This document shows, in pieces, positions 27,497 to 41,399 of a stretch of DNA of 64,000 nt (within the stretch, counting starts at the first letter, position 1; the number at the start of each line of letters is the position of its first letter). The translations under genes and the position numbers were made by a program. The notes under the pieces are model-generated. The model had not been told where the DNA came from and did not search any database. It saw only the letters and a list, made by a program, of their open reading frames with translations. This stretch comes from an uncultured Gammaproteobacteria bacterium (GTDB lineage Bacteria; Patescibacteriota; Patescibacteriia; Magasanikbacterales; UBA922): assembly GCA_964597575.1 (NCBI GenBank), contig CAZQXB010000001.1:778892-842891 (forward strand). The letters run 5' to 3'.

Positions 27497-29358
27497 AGTT
27501 CAATCATAAGGAGTGCCCACAAGTGATTACTGTAGTCAGCCACCTTTTCTTCGTGATCACGAAAAACGCGCTTGAGGGTTGTTTCCGAAAAAATGGATTT
27601 CGTTTCAGCCGCAGAGTCAAAAAGTACCTCTTTCGCAAATACCCCAAACTTCTCACGAAACAGTCGGTCGAGTGGCATACTGAACCCTTGTTTGGGGCGA
27701 TTCAATACCGACTGCGGCAAAATATCCTGAACGACTTGTCGCCACACCCACTTGCCTCCTTGGCGCAAATGAAGCCGGGCTGGAATCTGGTTCGCCAAAG
27801 CAACGACCCGAGGATCCAAAAATGGTGAACGCACTTCTAGAGCCGAGTGCATGCTCGCCATATCTACCTTATACAAGTATCCATCAGGAAGGCGTCCTTC
27901 TTGATCAGCAAGAAGTGCCGCCGCGAGGGGCCCTTCGGGCAGATATTGCTTTACCCAGTTATATAGTGCGCTTTTCTTCTTTTGACTCAAAATGCGCGCA
28001 CGAAAAGTGTCGGTAAAAAGATCGGCTTCCGTAATATATCTTTTGGAAATAGGTAAAGCGTCTTTCCAAACACTAAATCTTTTTACATACATATCGGCGA
28101 CGTCTCCGGTCATCACTTCAAGCGGGTACGCTGCTCGAGGCGATACGATAGCCGCTGCTCGCGCCGCCGCCACCCGGAGGGTATTCGGAACATGAGCGTA
28201 GGCACGAAAGAGGCGCATATGCTGGTATGTATCGTACCCACCAAATAATTCATCGGCCCCATCCCCTCCCAAAACGACGGTCGAATGTTTTTTCATGTGC
28301 TCGGCCACAATAAGGCTTGGAACAGCAGATTGGTCGGTGAATGGCTCATCGTAGGTTTCAGCCACTCTTAAAACAAACGCTTCAAGAGATGTCTCTGGCA
28401 CAATAATTTCTTCATGTATATCTGACAGGCCAAAATGTTTGGCCACGCTTCTCGCTGAACGCGTATCATCATTTTCGCCCCCCAGCGCAACACAGTATGT
28501 TTTTGGTTTGAAACCCGCTGCTGAAAGTGCAGCCACAACTGAACTCGAGTCCACTCCACCACTTAGAAAGGCGCCGACCGGCACGTCAGAAGTAACGAGG
28601 CGTGCTACCGCTGCCTCAGAAAATGCTTTCCACAAATCTTTCTTCATCACCTGAAGAGAAGGCATGACTCTCGTCTGATTTTCTCGTCGAGCATATCGAC
28701 GAACCTGAACAACACCGCGGTGCCATACTAACGTATGACCAGCAGGGAGTTTAGAAACTCCCTGAATTCCAGTTTGTGGTGCCGGCACAAACCGGAGCGA
28801 AAGGACGTCCGGAAAAACAGACCAATCAATGTCTTTTTTTATCTCAGGGTGGGTTAAGAGAGCCTTCAGTTCTGAGGCAAAAAGAAGTGTTTCTCCAAGC
28901 TCGGTATAGACAAAAGGTTTTTCCCCCATAGGGTCACGCGCGGCAAACAAGCGCTCTTCGTGCGTATCCCAAATAGCAAAAGCAAACATGCCATTCAATT
29001 TTTCCAAACACGCTTCTCCCCACGCAGCATAAGCAGTCAAAAGAACCTCGGTATCGCTTTCTGAAGAAAAAGAATGACCAAGGAGGCGCAACTCTTCACG
29101 GAGCGCTTGATAGTTAAAAATCTCTCCATTGAAAACGATAACGTAACGAGCATCATGACTTTGCTTTGGCTGTACCCCACCCAAAGAGAGGTCGATAATA
29201 GACAACCGTGCATGCCCAAAAGCAGCCGTTTGCTTCTCATTCACCCACTCTCCTTCGGCGTCTGGTCCACGATGACGAACTGCAAGGCGCATCTGTCGGA
29301 CATGAGAGGGCCGGTTCGAGAGAGGGCGTTGTCCGACACTGCCGACAATGCCACACAT
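27472..29358 (-). CDS. asnB: Asparagine synthase (glutamine-hydrolysing) family amidotransferase
   Basis: 628 aa with an MCGI N-terminal nucleophile and an SGGVDSS PP-loop. In glycan loci these enzymes often amidate uronic acids. Confidence 0.85.
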   Translation of the reverse strand: MCGIVGSVGQRPLSNRPSHVRQMRLAVRHRGPDAEGEWVNEKQTAAFGHARLSIIDLSLGGVQPKQSHDARYVIVFNGEIFNYQALREELRLLGHSFSSESDTEVLLTAYAAWGEACLEKLNGMFAFAIWDTHEERLFAARDPMGEKPFVYTELGETLLFASELKALLTHPEIKKDIDWSVFPDVLSLRFVPAPQTGIQGVSKLPAGHTLVWHRGVVQVRRYARRENQTRVMPSLQVMKKDLWKAFSEAAVARLVTSDVPVGAFLSGGVDSSSVVAALSAAGFKPKTYCVALGGENDDTRSARSVAKHFGLSDIHEEIIVPETSLEAFVLRVAETYDEPFTDQSAVPSLIVAEHMKKHSTVVLGGDGADELFGGYDTYQHMRLFRAYAHVPNTLRVAAARAAAIVSPRAAYPLEVMTGDVADMYVKRFSVWKDALPISKRYITEADLFTDTFRARILSQKKKSALYNWVKQYLPEGPLAAALLADQEGRLPDGYLYKVDMASMHSALEVRSPFLDPRVVALANQIPARLHLRQGGKWVWRQVVQDILPQSVLNRPKQGFSMPLDRLFREKFGVFAKEVLFDSAAETKSIFSETTLKRVFRDHEEKVADYSNHLWALLMIELWMKQLKK

Positions 29359-29367
29359 ACTAGAAAA

Positions 29368-30192
29368 TTATTTTTGAGCGATGATTACGATATTCCACGC
29401 GTATCGCTTTAAAAAGGGCAGAACTTTAAACACGACTCGGTCGATCACAGCTAAGCGCGTATAGAGCGGCTCTAATTTTTTATGATCCGTTAAAATCTTT
29501 TTCCAGTATCGTTCTTTATTCGGATGGACACGATCAATGAAGAAGAATTTCAAAAAAATGAAAAGAGTTGCGAACCAAAATGTTTCATACCGTACCGGAG
29601 AAAAATGCCGACGGAAAATTTCGATCTGATGCATTTTAATCGGATGTTCATCTTCGGTGCGAACTCCCATAGCCATGCGTCGATAGACATTAATGACTGG
29701 GTTATGCGCCACAGGATCCCACGACACAAAAATACCACCGGGACGAAGAACGCGCTTTGATTCAATGAGAGCGGCTTCAATATCAACATGATGCAGCAAA
29801 TTTGCTGCGTACACCACGTCAAATGACGCATCAGGAAAAGGAATTTTATCCGCATACGCCTGTGCTGTATGAACCGATGTCCCATGGAGAGCGGCTACTT
29901 TTTTAACCACCTCGAGCATTCCACTTGAAATATCAGTCGCCGTCACCTCAGCTCCCTGCTTCGCGAAATACACGGCTCCTTCCCCTGCTCCCGACCCCAG
30001 TTCTAAGACCTTTTTTCCCTTCAAATCCCCAATCGACGAAATAATAAAGCGATTTTCCGGAGAGGTGCACGCCTCAAAAAACTCGTCGACCATGACCTCT
30101 TTTGGATCAATCGAACCAGCCCATTCATCGTGAAAATGCTCTTCTTTATCTAACACCTGAGATGAGGTCGTCATAAAAAAATAAGTTTGCAC
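29368..30192 (-). CDS. Class I SAM-dependent methyltransferase
   Basis: 274 aa with motif I VLELGSGAGEG and Methyltransf_11-like spacing. Confidence 0.75.
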   Translation of the reverse strand: MQTYFFMTTSSQVLDKEEHFHDEWAGSIDPKEVMVDEFFEACTSPENRFIISSIGDLKGKKVLELGSGAGEGAVYFAKQGAEVTATDISSGMLEVVKKVAALHGTSVHTAQAYADKIPFPDASFDVVYAANLLHHVDIEAALIESKRVLRPGGIFVSWDPVAHNPVINVYRRMAMGVRTEDEHPIKMHQIEIFRRHFSPVRYETFWFATLFIFLKFFFIDRVHPNKERYWKKILTDHKKLEPLYTRLAVIDRVVFKVLPFLKRYAWNIVIIAQK

Positions 30193-30200
30193 TTAGGACA

Positions 30201-31154
30201 TTAGGTTGCTGCATTTTTACTTTCCACCCGAGCCACAATATACAACGGACGATTCTTTGAACCCTCAAAAATACGTCCGATATATTCGCCGATGGTGCCT
30301 AAAATAATAATTTGGATGCCACCAATCATAATAATCGACAGAAGAATTGTGGTGAGACCCGGCACGGTTTTCGTTGTAAAAAGTCGTAAAAAAAGAATAT
30401 ATACTGCTCCGGCAAATCCCAAACCAGCAATAGCGTACCCAACAAAGTTCACAATTTTTAGCGGAGCGTAGGAAAAAGAAAAAATAGCATCCTTACTAAG
30501 GGCAATCATTTTCCGAAGCGGGTATTTTGTTTCTCCTGCAAACCGTGCATCTCGGTTATATTGAATAATGGTACTCCGAAACCCAACCCAAGGAATGAGG
30601 CCGCGAACGAAACGGTGGCGCTCTCGCATATTCCGAAGTTCCGTCACCACAGGCCGGGCAATCAAGCGAAAATCTGCCGTATCAAGTGGAATATGAATTT
30701 TACAAATGCGCGAAATAAGACGATAGAACATTTTCGCACTCGCACGTTTAAACCACGTCTCTCCCTTCCGCGCGAGACGCTGGGCAAACACGACCTCATA
30801 CCCTTCTTCCGCTTTCTGAAATAAGTCAGCAATAAACTCCGGGGGGTCTTGTAAATCTGCATCAATCGTCACAACGTAATCCGCGCTACTATAGTCAATA
30901 CCCGCAGTAATCGCAATTTGGTGTCCAAAATTACGGCTAAAATGAAGCACCTTAACCCCCTCATGCTCACGAGCAAACACATCAAGAATGCCTGGTGTTT
31001 TATCTTTCGACCCATCGTTTATAAAAATAAACCGAACTTCGGCGGCAAGAGTACTCTGCAGTTTTAACAATCGCTCAAACAAGGCTGGTAAACACTCCTC
31101 TTCATTAAAAACAGGGATAACGACATCGAGTGTTTTTCGTGCGGATGGAATCAT
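30201..31154 (-). CDS. GT2 polyprenyl-phosphate glycosyltransferase (ArnC/GtrB-like) with two C-terminal TM helices
   Basis: 317 aa with VIPVFNEE, NDGSKDKT, IDADLQDPPE and a C-terminal TM pair typical of GtrB/ArnC. Confidence 0.85.
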   Translation of the reverse strand: MIPSARKTLDVVIPVFNEEECLPALFERLLKLQSTLAAEVRFIFINDGSKDKTPGILDVFAREHEGVKVLHFSRNFGHQIAITAGIDYSSADYVVTIDADLQDPPEFIADLFQKAEEGYEVVFAQRLARKGETWFKRASAKMFYRLISRICKIHIPLDTADFRLIARPVVTELRNMRERHRFVRGLIPWVGFRSTIIQYNRDARFAGETKYPLRKMIALSKDAIFSFSYAPLKIVNFVGYAIAGLGFAGAVYILFLRLFTTKTVPGLTTILLSIIMIGGIQIIILGTIGEYIGRIFEGSKNRPLYIVARVESKNAAT

Positions 31155-31227
31155 ACATGGGACTAAACTGCTCTTCGCATAATACGTTCAATGTACACAA
31201 AAATGCCTGGTTTGTACATACCTAGGC

Positions 31228-32841
31228 CTAGCGCATACGAGCGAACAACTCTCCCCACCACTTGACCCGAAGTTTTGTAGGGAAAAAAGAAGTGACCGCA
31301 ATAACCAGACGATTTTTGAATCCTAGGAACAAAAAAGGCTTCTTTTTTGAAATTGCTTCAAGAATATGATCTGCCACTTCAAGCGGAGAAAGAAGCGGGC
31401 CACTACTTCTGACCCCTGCACGTTCTTGGAATGCCGTATTTGTACCTGAAGGTGAACACGTTACGACAGAGCACGATTCCTTTTGCTCGTACCAAAGGGC
31501 GCTTGACCAACTCAGGATAAACGCTTTGGTTGCGGCATACACACCCATACCCGGAAGTGGATGGTGACCCGCGGAACTCGCAATATTTACCACTGTACCA
31601 CCATGGCGAGCAATCGTTGGAAGAAGTGCTCTTGTTAAAAGAACTGGGGCCATCATATTCACGCCCATCATGAGGGCGAGCTGTTCTTCGGACATAGTAT
31701 CGAAATCGCCCTTAAATCCCACCCCAGCATTATTAATAAGTACAAAAAGTGGATACTCCCGAGTGGTCTCAATGACGGTTTGAATTCCATCCACAGTAGA
31801 GAGGTCTGCGCAAATAATTCGATTTCCCTTGAGCTCTGCCATACGCTTAATCTGTTTGTCAACCAAAAGAAGGGGTTTTCCTTCGGCATGAAGACGGCAG
31901 GCTAATTCATAGCCAATACCGCTATTCGCACCGGTCACGAGCCAGTACCCGGTATTCACCACATGATCACGAATCACCCCAAGTATTGCGTCAGAAAAAA
32001 GGCGTGGTTGTTTGTTTTTAAAAAATGTCTCACGAAATGATTCGTCGGGGGTAAAAAGTGCGTCCGCCACTCCCGTATTCTTGAGAAGCGGGAAAAAATT
32101 TTTTACCGAGCGAGGCAACCAGGTCAAACCAGGAAATGGAATTTGAGCTAAGGATCGACCGGTAATGTGCTCATGAATTGCGACAAAGATGCGACCAAAA
32201 GAAATTACTTCTGTTTCAGCAATAAAGGTCTTTCCTTTTACCCTGTCAGAACCAATACAGGCAATAAGAACCGCAACCAAATCTTCCACATGAATTACCG
32301 AGACTTGATTTGATATCTTCAGACGAAATATCCAATGCTTACGATACGCTAGGGTTACTAAATGACTGATAGCATCTTTCGTTGCCATGCCACGACCATA
32401 TACCGAACTGGGGCGAATGACTGTATACGGCACACTGCTTGCCGTAATAGCCTTTTCCTCTTTAGCCATTAATTCAGATTGAGGCCCACGCGCCGGCTGA
32501 CCGAGAACAACCAGATGTTTTCCTTTTTTACCTCCTTCTAGTGCCTGGAGAAGAGCAGAAATTGAAGCGCCACCTGAGGCATCAAAAAATATCGTAGCGC
32601 TCTCTAAAAGTGCTTCCCGATACACCGACGGCTCTTCAATAGAGCCATTTAGTACACGAATTCTTGGATCTTCCAAAGACAGTGGTGTTTTCGATAAAAC
32701 CCAAACTACGCTTGACGGGCTAAGCGTAGTAAGAAGTGCCGACAACAACTGAGAGGAGACAAAACCCCGGATATCAGTTAAAAAAACCGTGGCGGTTATT
32801 TCTCCCATAAACGTTCCGGAATATTTGGTGCTTTTGGCCAA
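31228..32841 (-). CDS. Two-domain oxidoreductase: N-terminal NAD(P)-binding epimerase/dehydratase-like domain fused to a C-terminal classical SDR
   Basis: 537 aa. The C-terminus has TGANSGIG, NNAG and YAATK. The N-terminal half is paralogous to the N-terminus of 35908-37485. Confidence 0.7.
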   Translation of the reverse strand: MAKSTKYSGTFMGEITATVFLTDIRGFVSSQLLSALLTTLSPSSVVWVLSKTPLSLEDPRIRVLNGSIEEPSVYREALLESATIFFDASGGASISALLQALEGGKKGKHLVVLGQPARGPQSELMAKEEKAITASSVPYTVIRPSSVYGRGMATKDAISHLVTLAYRKHWIFRLKISNQVSVIHVEDLVAVLIACIGSDRVKGKTFIAETEVISFGRIFVAIHEHITGRSLAQIPFPGLTWLPRSVKNFFPLLKNTGVADALFTPDESFRETFFKNKQPRLFSDAILGVIRDHVVNTGYWLVTGANSGIGYELACRLHAEGKPLLLVDKQIKRMAELKGNRIICADLSTVDGIQTVIETTREYPLFVLINNAGVGFKGDFDTMSEEQLALMMGVNMMAPVLLTRALLPTIARHGGTVVNIASSAGHHPLPGMGVYAATKAFILSWSSALWYEQKESCSVVTCSPSGTNTAFQERAGVRSSGPLLSPLEVADHILEAISKKKPFLFLGFKNRLVIAVTSFFPTKLRVKWWGELFARMR

Positions 32842-34028
32842 TATTTGATTTTTCGATATGGTCCTGGACGAGTCGTATTGTAAATTTCTGGATATCGGGC
32901 TTTAACTTTTTCAATAACATCAAATATCCCCTCCTCACCAACGGGCTTTAACTTACGAAAGCGCGTTTTAAATTGAATCCATAAGCGTTCACGGAGCGTT
33001 GAAAACGAACGAGCTGAAAGGGTCATTTCTGGGTAACTCCCAAAATTGCAGCCTGTACACTTTTTTGCAATCGATTTTACTGATTCGCGAAACTGATACG
33101 ATTTGTAGACTTCAGGAAAGTGATCATCGTACACATAGATCTTTTCTGGATACCGAAAATCACAGCACGGAGCAAACGCGCCGTCAGGAAGCATTGCAAA
33201 ATACAAATTTGGCGTATCACACACATCATCTTTCCTCCAATTTGGACGGCCTGTTGTAATAAAATGATAAATCGAATCAAGATAATCGTCTGAATCAAAC
33301 AGTGCATATCCCTGACGTTTTTTCTTCTTTAAGCGCTGAATCAATTCACGAATTTTGGGGTAATCTTCTTCTTTGAATTTAAAGTACTCATCATACCCTC
33401 GAAAATTCATCGGGCTTGAGGTTTGGGTAATATGCACTGGCACAAGCGAAAGCCACCAACCAATTTCTGTGGCAAAATCTAAAATAGCATCGATTTCGTC
33501 AATGTTGTATTGAGATAACACGCACCCAAGGGCACAAATCGAATCTTTCGGAGGAAACGTATTATTAATAAACCCAATGGTTTTCATGGCGTTGTTCCAT
33601 GAATGCGGCAAGCCATTAATATAGTCAGAAAGCTCTTCGTCGAGAGAATCGATACTTACATTAATATCGCGAGCTCCATACTCAACGCACTTCGCAATTT
33701 TATCTTTTTTATGATACAACCCAGCCGTCTGGAGACGGACATCAAGCTTGTTTTGCTTGAAAATACGAACGATATCATCAATATCTGGGCGCAAAAAAGG
33801 TTCTCCGCCAGTAAGGAGAACGACCCCAGCACCAATTTTTACCAAATTCTTTGCAATTTTTTCAATTTTATCCGGAGTGAACGGTTCAATATCCTGATTT
33901 GCCTCTACGATATTACACATTTTGCACTTCTGATGGCAGTATTTTGCAATATAAAACTGAATGTAAAAGGGTGAATCCTTCGTCATGAGTGCCCGAGCCA
34001 TCGACCGTTTTGTCTGAAGAGAAAACAT
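32796..34028 (-). CDS. Radical SAM domain protein (possible SPASM/twitch C-terminal Cys cluster)
   Basis: 410 aa with CxxxCxxC (CHQKCKMC) near the N-terminus, LTGGEPFLR, and C-terminal Cys (CCDF, CTGCNFG). Confidence 0.75.
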   Translation of the reverse strand: MFSLQTKRSMARALMTKDSPFYIQFYIAKYCHQKCKMCNIVEANQDIEPFTPDKIEKIAKNLVKIGAGVVLLTGGEPFLRPDIDDIVRIFKQNKLDVRLQTAGLYHKKDKIAKCVEYGARDINVSIDSLDEELSDYINGLPHSWNNAMKTIGFINNTFPPKDSICALGCVLSQYNIDEIDAILDFATEIGWWLSLVPVHITQTSSPMNFRGYDEYFKFKEEDYPKIRELIQRLKKKKRQGYALFDSDDYLDSIYHFITTGRPNWRKDDVCDTPNLYFAMLPDGAFAPCCDFRYPEKIYVYDDHFPEVYKSYQFRESVKSIAKKCTGCNFGSYPEMTLSARSFSTLRERLWIQFKTRFRKLKPVGEEGIFDVIEKVKARYPEIYNTTRPGPYRKIKYWPKAPNIPERLWEK

Positions 34029-34120
34029 AATAAATGTAACATGAAAGGCAGCCTGAACGACCGTTCGTGCACCTCCAAAATAGTAGCATGGGAAGTCTGT
34101 TTCGTCAAAAGCCTCACCCT

Positions 34121-35911
34121 CTATCGAAGGGCATAAATAATGTACTGATTATTTTCATAGACAGGCACCTCTTCTCGCGCCGTATACCCCGGAGAAGTTT
34201 TATCAAAAATAACAAAATCCGCATCCTTGGTCCTGAATTCCGAAAGTTCAATCTGATTGTATCGACTCCAATCAAACACCCCCCATTCGACCACGGTAAA
34301 CCGAAGCTCAAGCAACCGATCGTACGCTGGGAAAAAATACTCTGGGATATAACTTAATTGAAATAAATCGCAAGTGTTCACATAAATACTATTCTTTGTA
34401 ATGAATCGAAACGCACCGGAAAACATGCAATTATTCGGCGGGATGATAAACATTTTTCCCTTATACTGTTTTGCCCAGGTAAGCACCCCCCCAAATTCAG
34501 GGTGGGCTTTGGTGAGGCCGTAATTTTTGTCGATATCAAAACTAAAATTGAACTGGTTCTCGCCATGAAGAAGTCGGTACACTTTATGGAGCTTATTATT
34601 GAACTTATGTTCAAACATCCCAAGCACTATGATTGCAATAATGAGGGGCGGAAGAATAAGTAAACGTCTTTTTTTCACCGCCCCAATTGATTGATCAGCC
34701 AGAAGCCACGTGTTCCATTTTTTCTCCCCAAAAAATTTTTCTACCTGAAGCGCATAATACCCGAACACGAGAAGTAAAAGCCCGAGACCGAGGCGATGCG
34801 ACGGAACAATAAGACTCCCTATAAGCGTAAGTGCGGCAGTAATTGAGGTGAGTGTTTTCTTACGATATAAATTCCACGAGAGTATCGTAAAGAGAAGCAC
34901 AAACAACGGTTTAATAATATACGTTGCCCGAGAGGCAAAGTAGAGATAGAAAAACTGAACGTGGTGAATAACGTATACGTTCACCAACCAAATACCGACG
35001 AGTACAAAGGCTGCGGTAAACAGACGAAAAATAGTCTGTTCATGTAAAATAACGAACTGTTTTTTTGCTCGGACAAAGAGAAGAAATATCCAAGCGGCAA
35101 GAGTAAATGCGTAGGCCTCGGGGTAGCTCTCAATATAGATGTGCCCAAACCAATATCCGTTTAAGCTGCGAAAAAGCCGAAAAAACTTTTCTGCGTCAAC
35201 TACCGGACCAATACGTGAAAGAGCCAGAAAGACATTCGGAAGAAAAAGTAAACCGGCGATCACTGACCCAATTAAGAATTCTCGATACTTTTTCGTCTGC
35301 CACGCATCGTAGAGCATAAGGAGCCCAAACGAACACATGAAAAAGATACCCGACGGCGGATGAAGATAGGTGGTTAAACTCGCGATTGTAATACTCCACA
35401 CCGGTTTTTTAAGAAGATACAAATAAAGAGCCCACGTTTGAGCAAAGAGGACGCTCGAAACCGGACTCAAATAAAACAAAGGAATTGTCGACCCCCCAAT
35501 CGCAAAACGCTCACCAACAAAAAGCATGAGAAACATGGCCGCCACCGTAAGCCATTTATTTTTCGTCAGAAGAAGAAAAATATTATACCAGGCAAGTAGG
35601 AGAAGGAGGCCAATCGGAAAACTAATCAAAACATCGGCCAATGGAAAATTGCTGGCATACCCTGGAACGTAGTAGAGAAGCTGATAGAGAATGAAGTTCC
35701 CTTTGAGACTGCCGAGGACTCCAAGATCATTATGCGCAAACGCCTGGCTGTCCATCCGCCGGATTGTCATGGCATACCCATACGAGCCGTCGCCATTTAA
35801 CGTGAAGGTGGAGGCGAGCATATACGCTGCCACCATACCCAAAAGTACAACCAGTACCATGCCGCGGGGAAATTGAATGTTACGCCATATCTCTTGGAGA
35901 TCTTTGATCAT
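34121..35911 (-). CDS. Large polytopic membrane protein with a C-terminal extracytoplasmic domain (putative GT-C glycosyltransferase, paralog A)
   Basis: 596 aa with about 12 TM helices plus a roughly 170-aa C-terminal soluble domain. It is clearly paralogous to 37485-39299. Confidence 0.6.
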   Translation of the reverse strand: MIKDLQEIWRNIQFPRGMVLVVLLGMVAAYMLASTFTLNGDGSYGYAMTIRRMDSQAFAHNDLGVLGSLKGNFILYQLLYYVPGYASNFPLADVLISFPIGLLLLLAWYNIFLLLTKNKWLTVAAMFLMLFVGERFAIGGSTIPLFYLSPVSSVLFAQTWALYLYLLKKPVWSITIASLTTYLHPPSGIFFMCSFGLLMLYDAWQTKKYREFLIGSVIAGLLFLPNVFLALSRIGPVVDAEKFFRLFRSLNGYWFGHIYIESYPEAYAFTLAAWIFLLFVRAKKQFVILHEQTIFRLFTAAFVLVGIWLVNVYVIHHVQFFYLYFASRATYIIKPLFVLLFTILSWNLYRKKTLTSITAALTLIGSLIVPSHRLGLGLLLLVFGYYALQVEKFFGEKKWNTWLLADQSIGAVKKRRLLILPPLIIAIIVLGMFEHKFNNKLHKVYRLLHGENQFNFSFDIDKNYGLTKAHPEFGGVLTWAKQYKGKMFIIPPNNCMFSGAFRFITKNSIYVNTCDLFQLSYIPEYFFPAYDRLLELRFTVVEWGVFDWSRYNQIELSEFRTKDADFVIFDKTSPGYTAREEVPVYENNQYIIYALR

Positions 35912-37485
35912 ATTTTTTTATATACACGCATGGTGCGTGATGCAGGCCAAAAATGACGCACCCGGTGTTCCTGCACTCTTTTTGCTCCGAGTTCCAAAAG
36001 GAGAGCGTCCCAATCGCTTGGCGCGCGAAAGTGAAGTGTATCTTTTTTATACAAAAGATTGTCCCAAAACGTAGTCCACCACACATCTGGCATATCGTTT
36101 GCATCGACCTCTTTCATGACAAAAATCCCGCCAGGACGAAGCGTTTCTAGAACTTTTTTTAATAACTCACGTTGTTTTTCCTCTCCGTGATGATGAAGGA
36201 CATCGTTTACAATCACCGCTTCGGCGTCTTTTACTTCTACGTCTTCCATGCGTCGACAAACAAAGGTAGCATTCGGTGATGCGGCCGAAGTTGCCTGAGC
36301 AATCCGTTTTTCATCAACATCAATGCCGATCATACGTGCGCCCGGGATCGCCTGCCCAAGAAGATTCGTGAGCATCCCCTCTCCGCACCCTAAGTCGAGG
36401 ATGGTTCCACCGACTGGCAAAACTTCTTTGAAAAAAGAAACGGGGTAAAGAGACAGCTTGAGCCAGGCTCCAAAAAACCCAAAACCGATTTGGGTATATT
36501 TATGGACTTGTTTAAAAAGTGACGTATTGGTAGCAATAACATCTCGGATACCCTTCTCAAAAGAGACGGGGGCAGTGATTCCAAAATCGTGCATATACGA
36601 CTCTCGATCAGCATAGAGATAGTCGACAAACAAATTGGCAACGGTGAGTGGAATACCGTAATGAAATTTTTTTACAAACCAAGAAACGCAGGTGGGCACT
36701 GGTATCTGACGGGGGGTCGTTCCAGTTACTTCCTTTCCGATGATACGGAATATGGCTCCGATAGACAACGCTTCAGTGGTTCCGAAATACGTCTTCCCTA
36801 TCACTTTGGTATTTCCTATGCAGGAGATAAACGATTGTACAAGATCCCCCACATAGATAAGAGAAACACGGCCTGGAAATTGAATTCTCGTCAACAGTGA
36901 ACGCTTGTAAACCATAGACACAAACGTATTGATATGAGAATTAGATCGCATGTGTGTTCCATATACCCATGTCGGACGAATAATGGTAAAGGGAAGGCCG
37001 CTCTCTTTGACCCATTGCTCTGATTTCAATTTTGACTTTCCATACTGCGTTCGTGGTGCCGGAGTACTTTCAATCGTAAGAGGAAGTGAGAAGGTGTCTT
37101 TTTTATGTCGATCCACAGCACCAATCGTACTTATAAAAATAAAATTTTTCAGCTGACGACTGTCGGACTTCAGAATATCAACCAGGTGTTTCGTCGACTC
37201 AAAATTCACCCTTTCATCCTCGGCGCCACCTCCAAAAAAATTGACGTTGGCACCGAGATGAAACACATACTGTGCCTCACGAATTTCAGTCGCATGCCTT
37301 TTAATATCACGGAGGTCTCCCTTGAGAGCAATAACACGGGGATCAGAAAAAACCACGTCATTTCGTACAAGCACATAAATCTTCGCACGCTCAGAAATAG
37401 TGGAGAGAAGGTGTGCTAAAAAATGTTTACCGATAAATCCAGTTGCCCCGGTTATGAATATCGTTGTCTGCTCTTCCATATACAT
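35908..37485 (-). CDS. Two-domain protein: N-terminal NAD-dependent epimerase/dehydratase-like domain fused to a C-terminal class I SAM methyltransferase
   Basis: 525 aa. The N-terminus has FITGATGFIGKH. The C-terminus has ILDLGCGEGM and DVLHHHGEE (Methyltransf motifs I and post-II). Confidence 0.7.
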   Translation of the reverse strand: MYMEEQTTIFITGATGFIGKHFLAHLLSTISERAKIYVLVRNDVVFSDPRVIALKGDLRDIKRHATEIREAQYVFHLGANVNFFGGGAEDERVNFESTKHLVDILKSDSRQLKNFIFISTIGAVDRHKKDTFSLPLTIESTPAPRTQYGKSKLKSEQWVKESGLPFTIIRPTWVYGTHMRSNSHINTFVSMVYKRSLLTRIQFPGRVSLIYVGDLVQSFISCIGNTKVIGKTYFGTTEALSIGAIFRIIGKEVTGTTPRQIPVPTCVSWFVKKFHYGIPLTVANLFVDYLYADRESYMHDFGITAPVSFEKGIRDVIATNTSLFKQVHKYTQIGFGFFGAWLKLSLYPVSFFKEVLPVGGTILDLGCGEGMLTNLLGQAIPGARMIGIDVDEKRIAQATSAASPNATFVCRRMEDVEVKDAEAVIVNDVLHHHGEEKQRELLKKVLETLRPGGIFVMKEVDANDMPDVWWTTFWDNLLYKKDTLHFRAPSDWDALLLELGAKRVQEHRVRHFWPASRTMRVYKKI

Positions 37486-39299
37486 TATAAACTAAGATCG
37501 TAAACAACATACCTCGCACTCTCAAATACAGGAGAGCCTCCACGAGGCTTAAACCCTGAAGAACGTTTATCGAAAATGGCAAAATCCGCACCAGTCGACT
37601 TCAAAACAGCATCACTCATTGTATTATACCCAGAAAAATCAAGCTGACGCTCTCCGGTAATACGAAACCCCAACGCCGACATTCGGTGATACCCTTCAAG
37701 AAAATCTTTCGGGCTATAGCTCAGCTGACCCATATCATCAATATTGGCGTAGATACTATTTTTAGTAAAATATCGAAAGTACACAAAATCGTTTCGGCCA
37801 TCAAGGGGAACCAAAAATAGTTTTCCTTTGTATTGTTTGGCCCAGTCTACCAGTTCACTAAACGGTGGATTAGTTCGAGAAACAGAATAATTTCGGTCAA
37901 AATCAAAGGAAAAATTAAACACATTATTGCCACGGAGAAGTTGATAGACCTTATAAAACTTATTATTTCTTAGGTACCCAAAGACACCCGCGAGAAGTAC
38001 CAAAACAAGGAGAAGAATTTTTAGATTTCTCTTCTCCTCCTCACGCGTTTGTGGTTCAAAAAACCAAAGAAGTTTTGCTTCAAAAAGATAGCAAAGTGTA
38101 ACAAGAATAAGAATCAATGCTCCCGCCCACGAGGAAAGTGTCATCATGCTCACAGCCACTAGAAGGGCCAGAATCTTTGGTAGCCAATTTCGTCGTGAAA
38201 ACAAATGGTCAAAAACGAGCACCAAATACAACACACTTAAGGGCTTGATGATGTAGAATGCACGAGCGACAAAGGTGGTGTAATAAATATTGAGGTTACC
38301 GTGCGCGTAAAAATTAAGAAGCCAGACTGCACTTCCTAAAAATCCGATAATCATAAATCGAATCAGCATCTCTTGTCGCTCCACAACAAACTTTTTCTTG
38401 AAGTAAAGAACAAGAACGAGAAAGAGAGCTGCGAATGTGTATGCGTAGGTATGAGAAAAATATGACTCAACAAAAAGCGCCGAGACTTGCCGGATCTGAA
38501 ACATGATCGCAAAGAAAAGCTCTTTCTCTTCTTCAGACAGAGTCAGGTTATTTCCCAAAAGATAGATATTGGGTGCCACAATAACAAAGGCAGCCAAAAG
38601 AGGTTTCAAAAGATCGGAGAAACGTTTTGAACGCCAGACTTCTAAAAAAAGACAGGCACTCAGAATACCGAGGAAGACAAAACCAGAAGCAGGGTGCATG
38701 TAGGCGGTAACCCCAAGCAGGGCAAAACTGATAATATAACGCGCGCGGAGAAAATAGTAGAAGGCAAAAACTTGTAGAAAGTGAACACTTCCAATAGACG
38801 TAAAAATAAAAAATGGGATAGGGTACCCATGAAGGAATAATTTTGTATCAGAAAAGAGCAGGAAAAAAATGGCCAAAAGAACTATTTTTTTATTGTTGAC
38901 CAACACGCGAAAAACATTGTACCAGGCAAGTACCAAAAGAAGTGTAAGTGGGGTACTGAAAACAAAATCACGAAGGTTATAATTATCCGCAAAAAGAGGA
39001 ATAAGCGCGAGCAGCCGGTACAGCAAAAAATTTCCTGCTCCACTATTTACGAGAACATCACTCGCATGATAGAACGATGGATTTGCCAAACGCTCTGTAA
39101 TTGCATACCCAAAAAAACAGTCTCCACAAATACTGAAGGCGTTCAGAAATGCGTAAACCGTAACCATGGCAATAAGCATGAGTGCTTCAAGACCACTTGG
39201 AATGTGGATCTCCCTCAATACTTCCCTACATTTTGCTAACCCCATACGAATCCATGTCATAGGAGAGTCATGAGACATAACGACGAGCTCGTTTAACAA
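37485..39299 (-). CDS. Large polytopic membrane protein with a C-terminal extracytoplasmic domain (putative GT-C glycosyltransferase, paralog B)
   Basis: 604 aa with the same architecture as 34121-35911. The shared C-terminal blocks are FTKNSIY, GQLSYSP and GADFAIFDK. Confidence 0.6.
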   Translation of the reverse strand: MLNELVVMSHDSPMTWIRMGLAKCREVLREIHIPSGLEALMLIAMVTVYAFLNAFSICGDCFFGYAITERLANPSFYHASDVLVNSGAGNFLLYRLLALIPLFADNYNLRDFVFSTPLTLLLVLAWYNVFRVLVNNKKIVLLAIFFLLFSDTKLFLHGYPIPFFIFTSIGSVHFLQVFAFYYFLRARYIISFALLGVTAYMHPASGFVFLGILSACLFLEVWRSKRFSDLLKPLLAAFVIVAPNIYLLGNNLTLSEEEKELFFAIMFQIRQVSALFVESYFSHTYAYTFAALFLVLVLYFKKKFVVERQEMLIRFMIIGFLGSAVWLLNFYAHGNLNIYYTTFVARAFYIIKPLSVLYLVLVFDHLFSRRNWLPKILALLVAVSMMTLSSWAGALILILVTLCYLFEAKLLWFFEPQTREEEKRNLKILLLVLVLLAGVFGYLRNNKFYKVYQLLRGNNVFNFSFDFDRNYSVSRTNPPFSELVDWAKQYKGKLFLVPLDGRNDFVYFRYFTKNSIYANIDDMGQLSYSPKDFLEGYHRMSALGFRITGERQLDFSGYNTMSDAVLKSTGADFAIFDKRSSGFKPRGGSPVFESARYVVYDLSL

Positions 39300-40065
39300 A
39301 AAGAATAGTCAGATTTTTTATGGAAATCCAAAGCGGCATCCGCCTTGAAGCATGTTCTTTGGCAAACACTTCTGGTACGGGTTCCTGAATACGTCGGCCG
39401 ATACCCGTGTAGGTTAGTCTTCGTTTACGACCCCGAGTTCCGCCTGAACTGTACGCAGCATCATCAAGAGGCGAGCGAGTAAGATGTGAGACATGCCAGT
39501 AACGCTCTTTCATCCACAACACCTCTGCCACCTCAAAAAAAACGTGATTCTCGCTATCACGGAGCATATCGTGGTCATAATCCCCTGCCCAATGCACTCC
39601 TCGTGTTTTTTTAAATGCTCGCGGAGAAAACCAACCCTGCTTCCCAAGCATATGGTACGCACCCTCTTTGCGTGTCTCGTGGAAAATATCACCAACGCAC
39701 AGATAAAACGGCACGATAACACACTCTGCATTAGGCTGACTGATTAAACGGAGCAGCTCTTCCCCTCCGCGTTTCGTCCAAATCTCATCTCCGTCAACAA
39801 TAAGGCACCACTCGGTATTTGTTCTTTCAATCATTTCTTGCCGAAGCGCGGTATGGCGCACACGGTCACACGGCCCCTTCTCTTCAAAAAGAATTTTTTC
39901 TGGAAACTCTCTCCTGACTCGCTCAATAATTTCAACCGTTGCGTCGGTTGATCCGGTATCAAATACCATGACTTGGTCGGCAAATGAAACAACCGAACGA
40001 AGTACGGCTTCAATAAAACACTCTTCATTTACGACAATACAGTGGACTGTAAATTTCGAAGGCAT
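39268..40065 (-). CDS. Glycosyltransferase family 2-like protein
   Basis: 265 aa with MVFDTGSTDAT and IVDGDEIW (DxD). Confidence 0.65.
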   Translation of the reverse strand: MPSKFTVHCIVVNEECFIEAVLRSVVSFADQVMVFDTGSTDATVEIIERVRREFPEKILFEEKGPCDRVRHTALRQEMIERTNTEWCLIVDGDEIWTKRGGEELLRLISQPNAECVIVPFYLCVGDIFHETRKEGAYHMLGKQGWFSPRAFKKTRGVHWAGDYDHDMLRDSENHVFFEVAEVLWMKERYWHVSHLTRSPLDDAAYSSGGTRGRKRRLTYTGIGRRIQEPVPEVFAKEHASRRMPLWISIKNLTILFVKRARRYVS

Positions 40066-40067
40066 AC

Positions 40068-41399
40068 TTACAAAGTAACAAGTGTTTTTCTCCGACGAAC
40101 ATACTCTGCGGCCACAACAGTATAGACATTCATAAGAAAGACTGTTCCAAAAAACGAGAAACTTGCTCCAATCACCCCAAATTGGGGAATAAGCACCATG
40201 TTAGCGCCAATCGTAATTGCAAGCTGAAGCACTCCTCCAATAGCAAGCACTTTCGTTGCATTTAATGCTGAAATCATGAGTGACCATGGCAGGGCAAGAA
40301 AATTGAGCAAAATACTATAACTCAAAATAACATAGACATTCATGGAGGCTGCGTACTCCGGCCCAAAAAGAAGAGGGAGAAAAACTTTAGACGGATAAAT
40401 AAAAAGTGCCAAACAAATTACTAAGGGGATAATTTTTCGATACATTGCTTTAAGCAATGTTTGCATTTCTAATACCGTTGCTTTCGCACTCATTTTTGGT
40501 GCAAGAACTGTTGTAAGCGACTGCAGCATATAGGTATAGAACACAATGAGTTGCATGCCGGCACTGTAAATGGCCACGTCTTTTACCGATAAATACCGAC
40601 TGATGAGTGTTTGATCAACCCGAGAGGCAATGATAATAAGAAAAGACCATATCATAACCCAAACACTAAACGAAAAAAGTTTCTGCCTCATTATAGCAAC
40701 CTCCTCGGAAGGAATAATGGTCCGTGAAAATCCTTTGGGTAACTGAGGAAGAGTTCCCAAAGTAACAAGCCACGGCACCGTAATATAGGCAAGAAGGAGG
40801 AGGCGAAGATCAAGAACCCCACAAAATACTAAACCCGCCACAAAAACAAACCGCAAAGTCCCTTTTATGGCATTCACTCGGGCAGCCGCCAAAAAACGTT
40901 GCGTCGCTTGCAAATAGACACTAATTGCTGCCGATAAAATAACCCCTCCCACGCCGAGAAAGGCGAGTTGAAAATACGGAGTGAGTGCTTCTTCATGATA
41001 CAAATGACGCGCTAACACCCCGGAGAGCAAAAGTCCACCAAGGGTAATACACAGAGTAAGGAAAAGGCGCCAACGCCACATCAATTTCACAAGGACCTTT
41101 AGTTTACTTTCTTCATGCTGGGCATAATAGTACGATGCAAAACGAAGAAAAGCGGCATTTAATCCAAAATCTGACAAATCGGTTACAGCCCCCAACACCA
41201 GAAGCGCCAACCCAAACATACCAAAAGCTTCTTGGGAAGTACTTCTTGCTAAAACTAAATTGGTCGCAAAAAGAGCAACATTATTTACAAACGAGCCAAT
41301 ATACACAACCGAAACATCACGGAACGCTTTCAGTTGAAATGTATTTCGAAGCACCTGAAACATACAGCTAATCAATAACCCGCTCTCCGTTTGTTGCAT
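40068..41399 (-). CDS. Oligosaccharide flippase (Wzx / polysaccharide biosynthesis protein, MOP superfamily)
   Basis: 443 aa with about 12 TM helices and a Wzx-like N-terminal region. Confidence 0.7.
   Translation of the reverse strand: MQQTESGLLISCMFQVLRNTFQLKAFRDVSVVYIGSFVNNVALFATNLVLARSTSQEAFGMFGLALLVLGAVTDLSDFGLNAAFLRFASYYYAQHEESKLKVLVKLMWRWRLFLTLCITLGGLLLSGVLARHLYHEEALTPYFQLAFLGVGGVILSAAISVYLQATQRFLAAARVNAIKGTLRFVFVAGLVFCGVLDLRLLLLAYITVPWLVTLGTLPQLPKGFSRTIIPSEEVAIMRQKLFSFSVWVMIWSFLIIIASRVDQTLISRYLSVKDVAIYSAGMQLIVFYTYMLQSLTTVLAPKMSAKATVLEMQTLLKAMYRKIIPLVICLALFIYPSKVFLPLLFGPEYAASMNVYVILSYSILLNFLALPWSLMISALNATKVLAIGGVLQLAITIGANMVLIPQFGVIGASFSFFGTVFLMNVYTVVAAEYVRRRKTLVTL

What the first reader, a model, noticed from the sequence alone, without database searches (positions are those of the whole stretch)
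31228..39299. Tandemly duplicated module: epimerase-fusion enzymes paired with roughly 600-aa GT-C-like membrane proteins, plus a radical SAM enzyme
The N-terminal NAD-binding domains of 31228-32841 (fused to an SDR) and 35908-37485 (fused to a SAM methyltransferase) are paralogous, sharing the block around KGKTF/IGKTYF...PRQIP. The two roughly 600-aa 12-TM proteins at 34121-35911 and 37485-39299 are also clear paralogs, with shared C-terminal blocks FTKNSIY, GQLSYSP and GADFAIFDK. The arrangement suggests an ancient duplication of an enzyme-plus-transferase pair followed by domain swapping, with the SDR exchanged for a methyltransferase. Neither the fusion architectures nor the membrane proteins match well-known families, so the enzymology may be novel. 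One possibility is modification of a polyprenol-linked sugar coupled to its GT-C-type transfer.
Basis: partly seen in the sequence, partly recalled or inferred. Interest (0 to 1): 0.65.

Follow-up and report, generated by a model that had tools for sequence, protein, structure and literature searches.

The report
Duplicated GT-C-like glycosylation cassette with radical SAM
This stretch holds an expanded copy of a widespread but unstudied gene cassette that probably builds an unusual lipid-linked sugar and attaches it outside the cell; the two 600-aa membrane proteins are the likely transferases.

Summary
The two membrane proteins are full-length paralogs (34% identity, E=3e-110). The N-terminal NAD-type domains of the two fusion enzymes are also paralogous (29%, E=7e-34).

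The region is not a free-standing novelty. It elaborates a conserved cassette: radical SAM enzyme, epimerase::SDR fusion, GtrB/ArnC-like polyprenyl-phosphate glycosyltransferase, UbiE-like methyltransferase, and a ~600-aa polytopic membrane protein. This cassette occurs in many bacterial lineages and in Methanoperedens archaea.

The membrane proteins have no Pfam match. Four lines point to a GT-C transferase:
- a 13-TM, N-in/C-out model whose best solved-structure matches are all GT-C enzymes;
- a profile-profile link to PMT_2;
- conserved polar residues on the outer face;
- PMT_2 or DUF2079 proteins occupying the same cassette slot elsewhere.

They form a rare, divergent branch of the DUF6798 membrane-protein superfamily.

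The epimerase-like domain of 31228-32841 has lost its NAD-binding and catalytic motifs. The intact copy sits in 35908-37485, fused to a methyltransferase that is fused on the other side in other lineages.

The sugar, the acceptor and the radical SAM chemistry are unknown. I class this as a new variant of the three-component, GT-C-dependent glycosylation theme.

The parts
37485..39299 (-). MP-B: 13-TM GT-C-like membrane protein with a ~150-aa extracytoplasmic C-terminal domain. Clade B paralog. Likely true start is M14 at 39260.
   Evidence: 34% identical to MP-A. AF2 model pLDDT 76, pTM 0.78. The 11 best Foldseek PDB hits are all GT-C enzymes. Topology, conserved D60/H202/R346, NJ clade B with 97% bootstrap.
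34121..35911 (-). MP-A: paralogous GT-C-like membrane protein. Clade A, the clade that also holds the single-copy cassette versions.
   Evidence: clade A, 100% bootstrap, together with L001, L011 and P0009. It keeps the D, HP, R..K and W/R/R conserved positions.
35908..37485 (-). Fus2: intact extended-SDR (epimerase/dehydratase-type) domain fused to a class I SAM methyltransferase.
   Evidence: Pfam. GxxGxxG, Ser and YGKSK are present. The Ep domain is 48% identical to the Ep domain of canonical Ep::SDR fusions, and the MTase domain is 51% identical to the N-terminal MTase of triple fusions. The Ep::MTase order was seen in only 3 full-length clusters.
32796..34028 (-). Radical SAM enzyme with a conserved C-terminal Cys cluster (SPASM/twitch-like). 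It is the most conserved gene of the cassette. Annotated start is M10.
   Evidence: PF04055 at 7e-24. 96% identical to the L003 ortholog, while neighbouring genes are 52-79%. More than 1000 relatives exist at 60-70% identity across Bacteria and Archaea. Invariant Cys residues listed. Weak PDB similarity to MoaA and BlsE.
31228..32841 (-). Fus1: degenerate epimerase-like pseudo-domain fused to an intact classical SDR with a hydrophobic C-terminal tail. It is the ortholog of the cassette's Ep::SDR. Likely start is M12 at 32808.
   Evidence: Alignment A2 shows TGATGFIG changed to TDIRGFVS and a ~40-aa deletion that removes the Ser and YxxxK. Between window and L003, the N-domain is 38% identical and the SDR domain 75%. 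Only the SDR half hits PDB or NCBIfam.
30201..31154 (-). GtrB/ArnC/PgfS-like polyprenyl-phosphate glycosyltransferase (GT2 with two C-terminal TM helices). Predicted maker of the lipid-linked donor.
   Evidence: Full-length match to Synechocystis GtrB sll0501 (5EKP) at E=5e-88 and to ArnC at E=6e-47. NCBIfam PgfS at 4e-74. TM segments. Co-occurs with the rSAM in 23 of 30 long loci.
29368..30192 (-). UbiE/MftM-like SAM methyltransferase, a conserved cassette member.
   Evidence: Pfam. 60-62% identical to the cassette methyltransferases of L001, L006 and L012. Best NCBIfam match is the mycofactocin oligosaccharide methyltransferase MftM, below its cutoff.
39268..40065 (-). Soluble GT2 (265 aa), functionally linked to the membrane protein by gene fusion in other genomes.
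   Evidence: Pfam GT2. 51% identical to the N-terminal domain of the GT2::MP fusion in L001; P0009 has the same fusion. Closest solved relatives are SunS and GmaR.
40068..41399 (-). Wzx-type (Polysacc_synt, MOP superfamily) flippase candidate. Its position upstream of GT2-MP is conserved.
   Evidence: Pfam. The same Wzx-GT2-MP order occurs in L003 and L011.
27472..29358 (-). AsnB-type glutamine amidotransferase, an accessory gene that recurs next to the cassette.
   Evidence: Pfam and NCBIfam. An AsnB homolog is also adjacent in L004 and present in L066.

Best explanation
The region is an expanded version of a conserved extracytoplasmic glycosylation cassette. The proposed steps are as follows.

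1. Inferred from strong homology: the GtrB/ArnC-like GT2 (30201-31154) transfers a sugar from a nucleotide sugar to polyprenyl phosphate on the cytoplasmic face.
2. Inferred: the sugar is tailored, either before or after this transfer. The tailoring enzymes are the radical SAM enzyme, the extended-SDR domain (now supplied by Fus2), the classical SDR of Fus1, and one or two SAM methyltransferases. This gives a modified, probably methylated and redox-edited, sugar.
3. Inferred: the lipid-linked sugar is flipped, possibly by the adjacent Wzx-type protein.
4. Supported by fold and context but not shown: the 13-TM GT-C-like proteins MP-A and MP-B transfer it to an acceptor outside the membrane. D60 in the first outer loop would act as catalytic base. 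H202, R346 and K352 would hold the phosphate. The conserved C-terminal domain would bind the acceptor.

The window lineage duplicated the transferase into clades A and B, and also duplicated the epimerase domain. One epimerase copy decayed into a pseudo-domain inside Fus1. The other stayed intact and became fused to a pathway methyltransferase (Fus2). This is complementary degeneration. The two transferases most likely differ in acceptor position or in donor variant.
For: Paralogy.

GT-C reading:
- All 11 best Foldseek PDB hits are GT-C enzymes (STT3, ArnT, PglB, EmbB/EmbA, PIGU, ALG12, ALG3). Probabilities are 0.80-1.00 and best E is 1.2e-3. Transporters (MurJ, WzxE, MFS, ABC) score 0.12 or below.
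- The 13-TM, N-in/C-out topology obeys the positive-inside rule at every loop.
- In the 96-sequence superfamily alignment, H202 (96%), R346 (98%) and D60 (70% D plus 18% N) all map to the outer face.
- hhalign of the superfamily against PMT_2-bearing cassette partners gives 91.6% probability, E=8e-7, over MP-B residues 88-223.
- One partner (L021) carries PMT_2 above its cutoff plus a weak DUF6798 match.
- 65 of 77 distant relatives carry DUF6798, and one carries PMT_2.

Donor supply: the GT2 matches GtrB at 5e-88 and ArnC at 6e-47.

Cassette:
- A stand-alone operon rSAM-Ep::SDR-GT2-MTase-MP sits among housekeeping genes in L012.
- The same set occurs in L001, L004, L010 and L011.
- Among 30 long loci with the rSAM, 23 have the GtrB-like GT2 and 20 the methyltransferase. 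26 have a ~500-800-aa polytopic protein with a C-terminal tail on the same strand.
- The membrane partner is interchangeable: PMT_2, DUF2079, the MP family, or others. This mirrors conserved gtrAB paired with a variable gtr(type).
- Rosetta-stone fusions exist: GT2::MP and MTase::Ep::SDR.

Degeneration. Duplication history.
Against: - No direct sequence match of MP-A or MP-B to any Pfam, NCBIfam or PDB entry.
- Foldseek E-values are weak (1e-3 to 0.4) and TM-scores are only 0.26-0.49. The model was built from 9 sequences.
- D60 is not invariant across the superfamily.
- The C-terminal domain has no detectable structural relative, so its role is a guess.
- Some cassette loci (for example L006) have an ABC exporter and no recognisable GT-C nearby.
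- No GtrA-type flippase is present.
- Nothing identifies the sugar, the acceptor, the order of tailoring steps, or the rSAM reaction.
- In-situ duplication of the epimerase domain cannot be told apart from acquisition of a second copy.
Confidence: 0.6

Rival explanations
1. The membrane proteins are Wzy/WaaL/EpsG-type polymerases or ligases. They would act on undecaprenyl-diphosphate-linked oligosaccharides of the surrounding Wzx/Wzy cluster, not on the cassette's monophosphate sugar.
For: The window is a large Wzx/Wzy-type glycan cluster with a Bac_transf initiating enzyme and Wzy_C proteins. Two distant superfamily members give weak EpsG matches.
Against: No WaaL, Wzy or SEDS structure appears among the Foldseek hits, and the hits are ArnT/PglB/STT3/Emb/ALG-type enzymes. 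The profile link is to PMT_2. The MP occurs in a stand-alone five-gene operon with a GtrB-like synthase and no Wzx/Wzy genes. The window already has two Wzy_C proteins.
Confidence: 0.12
2. The membrane proteins are not transferases. They would be flippases, exporters or scaffolds that move or organise the lipid-linked product, with the real transferase encoded elsewhere.
For: There is no sequence-level family assignment. Some cassettes carry an ABC exporter in the same neighbourhood instead. No GtrA is present, so a flippase role is formally vacant.
Against: Transporter structures score a Foldseek probability of 0.12 or below. The near-invariant polar residues and the highly conserved 150-aa domain face outward. 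PMT_2 and DUF2079 proteins fill the same slot elsewhere. A Wzx-type flippase gene is adjacent.
Confidence: 0.1
3. The cassette does not tailor a sugar. It would modify a lipid, for example the polyprenyl carrier or another membrane lipid, and the membrane proteins would attach or handle that lipid.
For: The extended-SDR domain scores best against lipid-type families: NAD_binding_4, thioester reductase, HpnA, SdmB and 3beta-HSD. The classical SDR has a hydrophobic tail and resembles mycolate and ketosphinganine reductases, though below their cutoffs. The rSAM gives weak matches to DUF3463 (the HpnH C-terminus) and to tetraether synthase Tes.
Against: All these matches fall far below family cutoffs. 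The constant partner is a GtrB-type sugar transferase. The methyltransferase resembles an oligosaccharide methyltransferase. The genomic context is glycan synthesis throughout.
Confidence: 0.1
4. The two fusion genes and the two membrane-protein genes were not duplicated together in place. The second epimerase domain (Fus2) was acquired or inserted separately, after a simple tandem duplication of the membrane-protein gene.
For: L005 has MP-B directly followed by MP-A with no fusion gene between them. The Fus2 epimerase domain nests among canonical Ep::SDR epimerase domains, while the Fus1 copy sits on a long branch. The Fus2 methyltransferase matches a domain that is fused in a different order elsewhere.
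Against: The same MP-B-Fus2-MP-A-rSAM-Fus1 order is kept in L003. L005 could equally have lost Fus2. The tree cannot resolve the question because of the long Fus1 branch.
Confidence: 0.4

Closest known systems
GtrA/GtrB/Gtr(type) three-component O-antigen glucosylation (Shigella and Salmonella phage-encoded; GtrB structure 5EKP from Synechocystis)
   Same: A GtrB-type polyprenyl-phosphate sugar synthase is present (E=5e-88 to 5EKP). It is paired with a polytopic membrane transferase that varies between lineages while the donor genes stay conserved.
   Different: There is no GtrA; no unassigned space exists for one between 29368 and 41399. The cassette adds a radical SAM enzyme, two SDR domains and methyltransferases. 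The transferase belongs to an undescribed family with a conserved C-terminal domain.
Arn pathway (ArnA/B/C/D/E/F/T) for lipid A modification with 4-amino-arabinose
   Same: It is a self-contained operon. An extended-SDR enzyme edits the sugar, an ArnC-type GT2 loads it on undecaprenyl phosphate (E=6e-47 to ArnC), and a 13-TM GT-C enzyme (ArnT, a Foldseek hit) transfers it outside. One Arn tailoring step (ArnD) acts on the lipid-linked sugar (own knowledge).
   Different: The cassette has no aminotransferase, formyltransferase or deformylase. It has a radical SAM enzyme and methyltransferases instead. There is no direct sequence similarity between MP and ArnT. The acceptor is unknown.
Polyprenyl-phosphoribose synthase / MATE flippase / GT136 GT-C system with auxiliary SDR epimerase (Citrobacter youngae O1/O2; PMC11127046)
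   Same: The GT-C enzyme has a C-terminal extramembrane domain and was recognised by predicted fold rather than sequence. A catalytic Asp sits near TM1, and essential His and Arg/Tyr residues lie at the outer face. A MOP-superfamily flippase and an SDR that diversifies the donor are also present.
   Different: The donor synthase there is a PRPP-dependent enzyme, not a GtrB-type GT2. It has no radical SAM enzyme. Its C-terminal domain is a beta-rich CBM, whereas the domain here is alpha/beta with no structural match.
Mycobacterial DprE1/DprE2 epimerisation of decaprenyl-phosphoribose, followed by Emb/Aft GT-C arabinosyltransferases
   Same: A two-step redox edit of a lipid-linked sugar includes a classical SDR reductase (DprE2). 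The product is then used by GT-C enzymes (EmbB and EmbA are Foldseek hits).
   Different: The oxidant there is a flavoenzyme. Here a radical SAM enzyme would have to play that part, which is pure inference. No specific similarity of the SDR to DprE2 was seen among the top NCBIfam matches.
Pfam DUF6798 (PF20604) membrane proteins
   Same: 65 of 77 distant relatives recovered with the family profile carry DUF6798 in the same C-terminal position. W486, R509 and R539 are kept across the whole set.
   Different: MP-A and MP-B do not match PF20604 themselves, even at E<=10. No function is attached to DUF6798, and no paper in the held library mentions it.

Membership tests
GT-C fold glycosyltransferases (ArnT/PglB/STT3/PMT type) | Polytopic membrane domain of about 11-13 TM helices, N-terminus inside, with an extramembrane domain outside | tested here: met
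   The AF2 model has 13 TM helices. The positive-inside rule is obeyed at every loop. GT2::MP fusions place the N-terminus in the cytoplasm.
GT-C fold glycosyltransferases (ArnT/PglB/STT3/PMT type) | Structural similarity to solved GT-C enzymes | tested here: met
GT-C fold glycosyltransferases (ArnT/PglB/STT3/PMT type) | Sequence or profile membership in a recognised GT-C family | tested here: inconclusive
   There is no Pfam, NCBIfam or PDB sequence hit. hhalign against PMT_2-type cassette partners gives 91.6% probability, E=8e-7, over 129 columns only.
GT-C fold glycosyltransferases (ArnT/PglB/STT3/PMT type) | Conserved acidic residue in the first extracytoplasmic loop, plus basic or His residues at the outer membrane face | tested here: met
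   D60 is 70% D plus 18% N, D81 is 70%, H202 is 96% and R346 is 98% across 96 sequences, and all are predicted to face outward. A catalytic role was not tested.
GT-C fold glycosyltransferases (ArnT/PglB/STT3/PMT type) | Uses a polyprenyl-phosphate-linked sugar donor | not testable with these tools
   Only context is available: a GtrB/ArnC-like synthase lies in the same operon and in most related cassettes.
Pfam DUF6798 (PF20604) | Match to the PF20604 model | tested here: not met
   MP-A and MP-B give no hit at E<=10. The relation is transitive only, through 65 of 77 profile-recovered relatives.
Gtr-type three-component system | GtrB-type polyprenyl-phosphate glycosyltransferase | tested here: met
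   Full-length match to 5EKP GtrB at E=5e-88, and two C-terminal TM helices.
Gtr-type three-component system | Small GtrA-type flippase | tested here: not met
   Genes are contiguous from 29368 to 41399, with only 73-nt and 92-nt gaps, so there is no room for a gtrA gene. A Wzx-type protein is present instead.
Extended SDR (NAD-dependent epimerase/dehydratase) | GxxGxxG NAD-binding motif, catalytic Ser/Thr and YxxxK | tested here: met
   The Fus2 N-domain has TGATGFIG, STIG and YGKSK, with Pfam Epimerase at 2.6e-19.
Extended SDR (NAD-dependent epimerase/dehydratase) | The same motifs in the Fus1 N-domain | tested here: not met
   The motif is TDIRGFVS (TSSEGFVG in the L003 ortholog). A ~40-aa deletion removes the Ser and YxxxK. 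The domain is 38% identical between orthologs, versus 75% for the SDR half. It is homologous but should not be filed as an active epimerase.
Classical SDR (adh_short) | TGxxxGxG, NNAG and the Ser-Tyr-Lys triad | tested here: met
   The Fus1 C-domain has TGANSGIG, NNAGVG, IASS and YAATK, with PF00106 at 1.1e-31.
Radical SAM superfamily (with SPASM/twitch-type auxiliary cluster) | CxxxCxxC motif, plus a C-terminal Cys cluster | tested here: met
   C31/C35/C38 and C270/C288/C289/C324/C327 are invariant in 20 diverse sequences. PF04055 scores 7e-24. SPASM Pfam appears only in the L001 ortholog, at 1.8e-4, so the auxiliary-cluster type is not settled.

The most novel reading that the evidence does not exclude
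The conserved five-gene cassette would make a previously unknown, radical-SAM-dependent modified sugar on a polyprenyl-phosphate carrier. It would be an oxygen-independent counterpart of the DprE1/DprE2 or ArnA type of donor editing. The sugar would be delivered by a new GT-C family (the DUF6798-related family, here duplicated) to a widely shared envelope acceptor in many uncultured bacteria, including Patescibacteria, and in some archaea.
Probability: 0.3. Interest if true: 0.78.

Novelty: new variant of a known kind. Interest (0 to 1): 0.6.

Why it matters
- Extracytoplasmic glycosylation through lipid-linked monosaccharides drives surface diversity, antibiotic resistance (Arn) and cell-wall assembly (arabinan).
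- This cassette would add a radical SAM step and a new transferase family to that theme.
- Its rSAM enzyme is 60-70% identical between Bacteria and Archaea, and the cassette can stand alone in a genome. Both points suggest a specific and important product that nobody has identified.
- It offers a compact, testable five-gene system for finding a new sugar and assigning a function to DUF6798-type proteins.
- The window itself is a clean natural example of complementary degeneration after duplication: one catalytic domain dies in one fusion protein and survives in another.

Tried and rejected
- PDB sequence searches with the 9-sequence and 96-sequence family profiles found nothing meaningful.
- The C-terminal domain was modelled alone (pLDDT 77.5). 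It had no Foldseek PDB hit with probability above 0.2, so a CBM or any other fold assignment was dropped.
- I tested whether the Fus2 methyltransferase came from the Methyltransf_23 gene that follows Ep::SDR in L001, L008, L010 and L011. No similarity was found, so the idea was rejected. It matches the N-terminal methyltransferase of triple fusions instead.
- The genome scan for MP relatives gave only 2 loci. The metagenome scan with A1 gave none, and A3 was too divergent to build patterns.
- The family HMM does not detect the other membrane proteins of the window (the ORF508 MptA_B-like protein, Wzy, Wzx, and the GT2-TM fusion). It also misses the 742-aa Methanoperedens neighbour.
- Literature searches for DUF6798, and for GT-C combined with radical SAM, GtrB or Patescibacteria, found no description of this cassette.
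- The source genome record could not be retrieved.
- Promoter, terminator and repeat scans of 27000-42500 showed nothing beyond chance, apart from one promoter-like site upstream of the rSAM gene.

Full report
**Observation**

All genes of the finding lie on the minus strand, inside a very long co-directional gene array.
- MP-A (34121-35911, 596 aa) and MP-B (37485-39299, 604 aa) align over their whole length: 34% identity, E=3e-110.
- The N-terminal ~300 residues of Fus1 (31228-32841) and Fus2 (35908-37485) align at 29% identity, E=7e-34.
- Pfam confirms adh_short in the C-terminal half of Fus1. It confirms Epimerase/NAD_binding_4 plus a class I methyltransferase in Fus2, and Radical_SAM in 32796-34028. 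It finds nothing in either membrane protein.
- At the DNA level only one 80-nt stretch is still 73% alike, so the duplication is old.

**Context in the window**

Almost the whole 64-kb window is glycan biosynthesis. It contains:
- a Bac_transf initiating enzyme;
- a UDP-sugar dehydrogenase and several epimerases;
- many GT2 and GT4 genes;
- a Wzx-type flippase and two Wzy_C proteins;
- several methyltransferases and an AsnB-type amidotransferase;
- further polyprenyl-phosphate-type GT2s (PpgS-like, AglJ-like);
- further GT-C-like proteins.

Directly downstream of Fus1 lies a 317-aa GT2 with two C-terminal TM helices. It matches the solved GtrB of Synechocystis over its full length (E=5e-88) and ArnC (E=6e-47).

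The source is probably a Patescibacteria (CPR) genome. This is inferred from three points. The identical rSAM and Fus2 proteins sit on a 913,817-bp NCBI contig. A sigma-70/DUF5667 pair is present. The closest relatives come from small-filter-fraction groundwater assemblies and a Patescibacteria MAG.

**The membrane proteins**

The family is rare. A word-indexed search of 5.8 billion proteins found 7 relatives. An exhaustive profile search of 1.84 billion cluster representatives found 181 at E<=1e-3 and 39 at E<=1e-30. No source names any of them.

The distant members almost all carry Pfam DUF6798 in the C-terminal domain (65 of 77), and one carries PMT_2. MP-A and MP-B themselves do not reach that model.

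An AlphaFold2 model of MP-B (pLDDT 76, pTM 0.78) was searched against the PDB with Foldseek.
- The eleven best hits are all GT-C enzymes or GT-C-like subunits: STT3, ArnT, PglB (three entries), EmbB, PIGU (two), ALG12, EmbA-EmbB and ALG3.
- Their probabilities are 0.80-1.00. E-values are weak (1.2e-3 to 0.4) and TM-scores are 0.26-0.49.
- Flippases and transporters score 0.12 or below.

Combining the model helices with family-averaged charge gives 13 TM helices. The N-terminus is inside and the C-terminal 150-aa domain is outside, and every predicted cytoplasmic loop is K/R-rich. GT2::MP fusion proteins (P0009 and L001) independently place the N-terminus in the cytoplasm.

In a 96-sequence superfamily alignment the best-kept residues are H202 (96%), R346 (98%), P243, W486, R509 and R539. 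D60 and D81 in the first outer loop are each 70% conserved. All of these lie on the outer face. Both window paralogs keep all of them.

The C-terminal domain modelled alone is an alpha/beta domain with no solved structural relative.

**The cassette**

Contigs carrying relatives show that the finding is an elaboration of a conserved gene set.
- L003 has exactly the window order.
- Single-copy versions are:
  - L001: GT2::MP - rSAM - Ep::SDR - MTase - GtrB-like GT2 - MTase.
  - L011: GT2 - MTase - MP - rSAM - Ep::SDR - MTase - GT2 - MTase.
  - L004 and L010: the same genes, plus B12-rSAM and, in L004, AsnB.
- L012 is a five-gene operon (rSAM - Ep::SDR - GT2 - MTase - MP) standing alone among housekeeping genes on a 650-kb contig.
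- A Methanoperedens genome has rSAM - Ep::SDR - MTase - MTase next to an unrelated 742-aa polytopic protein.

The rSAM is by far the most conserved component.
- It is 96% identical between the window and L003, where neighbouring genes are 52-79%.
- It is 60-70% identical across phyla and domains, with more than 1000 relatives.
- It has ten invariant cysteines.

The window methyltransferase 29368-30192 is 60-62% identical to the cassette methyltransferase of L001, L006 and L012.

**Quantifying co-occurrence**

A metagenome scan with the rSAM alignment gave 66 loci. Of the 30 loci that are at least 12 kb long and have an intact rSAM ORF:

| Feature near the rSAM | Loci (of 30) |
|---|---|
| GtrB-like GT2 | 23 |
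| Cassette methyltransferase | 20 |
| Ep domain | 21 |
| SDR domain (fused to Ep in 11) | 18 |
| 480-800-aa protein with at least 8 hydrophobic segments and a 100-400-aa C-terminal tail, same strand, within 9 kb | 26 |

These are crude BLAST and hydropathy criteria, and some loci are near-duplicates.

Only a minority of those membrane proteins are detected by the MP-family HMM. The rest fall into several groups.
- One group is Pfam PMT_2 above its cutoff. L021 scores 57.5 bits and also has a weak DUF6798 hit at its C-terminus.
- Another group is DUF2079, at 197 bits.
- Profile-profile comparison of the PMT_2 group with the MP superfamily gives 91.6% probability, E=8e-7, over MP-B residues 88-223 (TM2-TM6). 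The DUF2079 group gives 82%.

The pattern is conserved donor genes plus an interchangeable GT-C-type partner. That is the pattern of gtrAB with a variable gtr(type). It is the strongest contextual argument that MP-A and MP-B are the transferases.

Tandem pairs of the membrane partner also occur in an unrelated group (L055, L060). Duplication of this component is therefore recurrent.

**The fusion enzymes**

An alignment of Fus1, Fus2, their L003 orthologs and two canonical Ep::SDR proteins shows that the Fus1 N-domain is degenerate.
- TGATGFIG has become TDIRGFVS (TSSEGFVG in L003).
- A ~40-residue deletion removes the catalytic Ser and YxxxK.

Between the window and L003, this domain is 38% identical while the SDR half is 75%. 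Fus2 is 64% and 66% in its two halves, and canonical proteins are balanced at 52% and 48%. The SDR half of Fus1 keeps all its motifs.

The Fus2 epimerase domain is 48% identical to that of canonical Ep::SDR proteins and nests among them in a tree. The Fus1 copy sits on a long branch.

The Fus2 methyltransferase domain is 51% identical to the N-terminal methyltransferase of about 800-aa MTase::Ep::SDR triple fusions (L006).

A survey of 133 relatives found:
- about 90 Ep::SDR proteins (about 557 aa);
- about 17 triple fusions;
- only 3 full-length Ep::MTase clusters, namely the source genome, L003 and one other.

The three domains therefore belong to one pathway and have been fused in different orders. 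In this lineage the epimerase function moved to Fus2, and the Fus1 copy decayed.

**Duplication history**

An NJ tree of the close MP family gives:
- clade A (100% bootstrap): MP-A and its orthologs, plus the single-copy and GT2-fused versions;
- clade B (97%): MP-B and its orthologs;
- A plus B together (99%).

MP-B is thus the extra copy, inserted between the GT2 (39268-40065) and MP-A. L005 has MP-B directly followed by MP-A. It is therefore not established that the epimerase and the transferase were duplicated as one unit.

**Mechanism proposed**

1. The GtrB-like GT2 loads a sugar on polyprenyl phosphate.
2. The rSAM, the extended SDR, the classical SDR and the methyltransferases edit the sugar.
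3. A flippase, possibly the adjacent Wzx-type protein, moves it outward.
4. MP-A and MP-B transfer it to acceptors outside.

What is shown: homology of the GT2, the domain identities and motifs, the fold and topology prediction, and the co-occurrence. What is inferred: the order of steps, the chemistry, the flippase, the acceptor, and the roles of D60, H202 and R346.

Weak pointers only:
- The rSAM resembles MoaA and the sugar decarboxylase BlsE.
- The SDR has a hydrophobic C-terminal tail and resembles lipid-acting reductases.
- The methyltransferase resembles an oligosaccharide methyltransferase.

**Comparison with known systems**

The closest known systems are the Gtr three-component system, the Arn pathway and the polyprenyl-phosphoribose/GT136 system with its auxiliary SDR epimerase (PMC11127046). 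The DprE1/DprE2 plus Emb/Aft pathway is also close.

This cassette shares their logic. It differs in having a radical SAM enzyme, in its fused SDR pair, in lacking GtrA, and in using an undescribed GT-C-like family. No paper in the held library describes DUF6798 or this cassette.

**Verdict**

This is a real, non-chance feature. It is incomplete on the evolutionary story and on the extent of the unit. I class it as a new variant of a known kind, with an interest score of 0.6.

Noticed in passing
L027:10001-11191 and L028:10001-11191: The rSAM orthologs on these contigs (26-28% GC; L027 comes from a 327-kb contig) have 15 and 17 in-frame TGA codons and no TAA or TAG. In L027, the one translated, the TGA codons fall at positions where glycine is conserved. 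This is the signature of genetic code 25 (Gracilibacteria/Absconditabacteria). The cassette therefore also exists in recoded CPR lineages.
   Followed up: partly
window 32796-34028 compared with L003:10761-11966: The radical SAM gene is 96% identical at protein level between the two genomes, while the flanking genes are 52-79% identical. Across 20 diverse sequences its mean column identity is 64%. This is unusually strong constraint for an enzyme of unknown function.
   Followed up: partly
window 20069-22210 (-), 22213-23400 (-), 23381-24076 (-): A second possible donor-plus-transferase set lies here. It comprises a 713-aa GT2 fused to about 11 TM helices, a 395-aa membrane protein with a weak PMT_2 match, and an AglJ-like GT2.
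   Followed up: no
window 42785-44311 (-): This 508-aa, ~10-TM protein has no Pfam hit here. Its counterparts in L003 and L005 are recorded as MptA_B_family (GT-C mannosyltransferase-like). It would be a third kind of GT-C-like protein in the same operon.
   Followed up: no
window 5362-6021 (-): This 219-aa GT2 resembles the polyprenyl-phospho-N-acetylgalactosaminyl synthase PpgS (E=6e-47, below the family cutoff). It is another lipid-linked monosaccharide donor candidate in the window.
   Followed up: no
window 48649-52572 (-), 52695-54693 (-): A 1307-aa ORF without any Pfam match sits next to a DUF5667 protein and an ECF-type sigma-70 factor. It may be a large surface protein and regulator at the edge of the glycan cluster.
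   Followed up: no
L055:7679-11067 and L060:13023-16399: In an unrelated group of cassette-linked membrane proteins (no Pfam match), the gene is also present as a tandem pair. Duplication of the membrane partner has therefore happened independently more than once.
   Followed up: partly
L001:2221-4791 and protein P0009: The soluble GT2 equivalent to window 39268-40065 is fused to the N-terminus of the membrane protein, giving a cytoplasmic GT-A domain and a GT-C-like domain in one chain. Its closest solved relatives are the peptide and protein glycosyltransferases SunS and GmaR.
   Followed up: partly
window 34080-34108 (-): A promoter-like site (TTGACG, 17-nt spacer, TACTAT, with an upstream TG) lies in the 92-nt gap between MP-A and the rSAM gene. 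It is the only sizeable intergenic gap inside the module. The total number of promoter-like sites in the region is no higher than chance.
   Followed up: no
L006:11169-13568 and L006:15345-17117: In this 1.77-Mb contig the cassette carries an MTase::Ep::SDR triple fusion (799 aa). It has an ABC exporter where other loci have the polytopic membrane protein.
   Followed up: no
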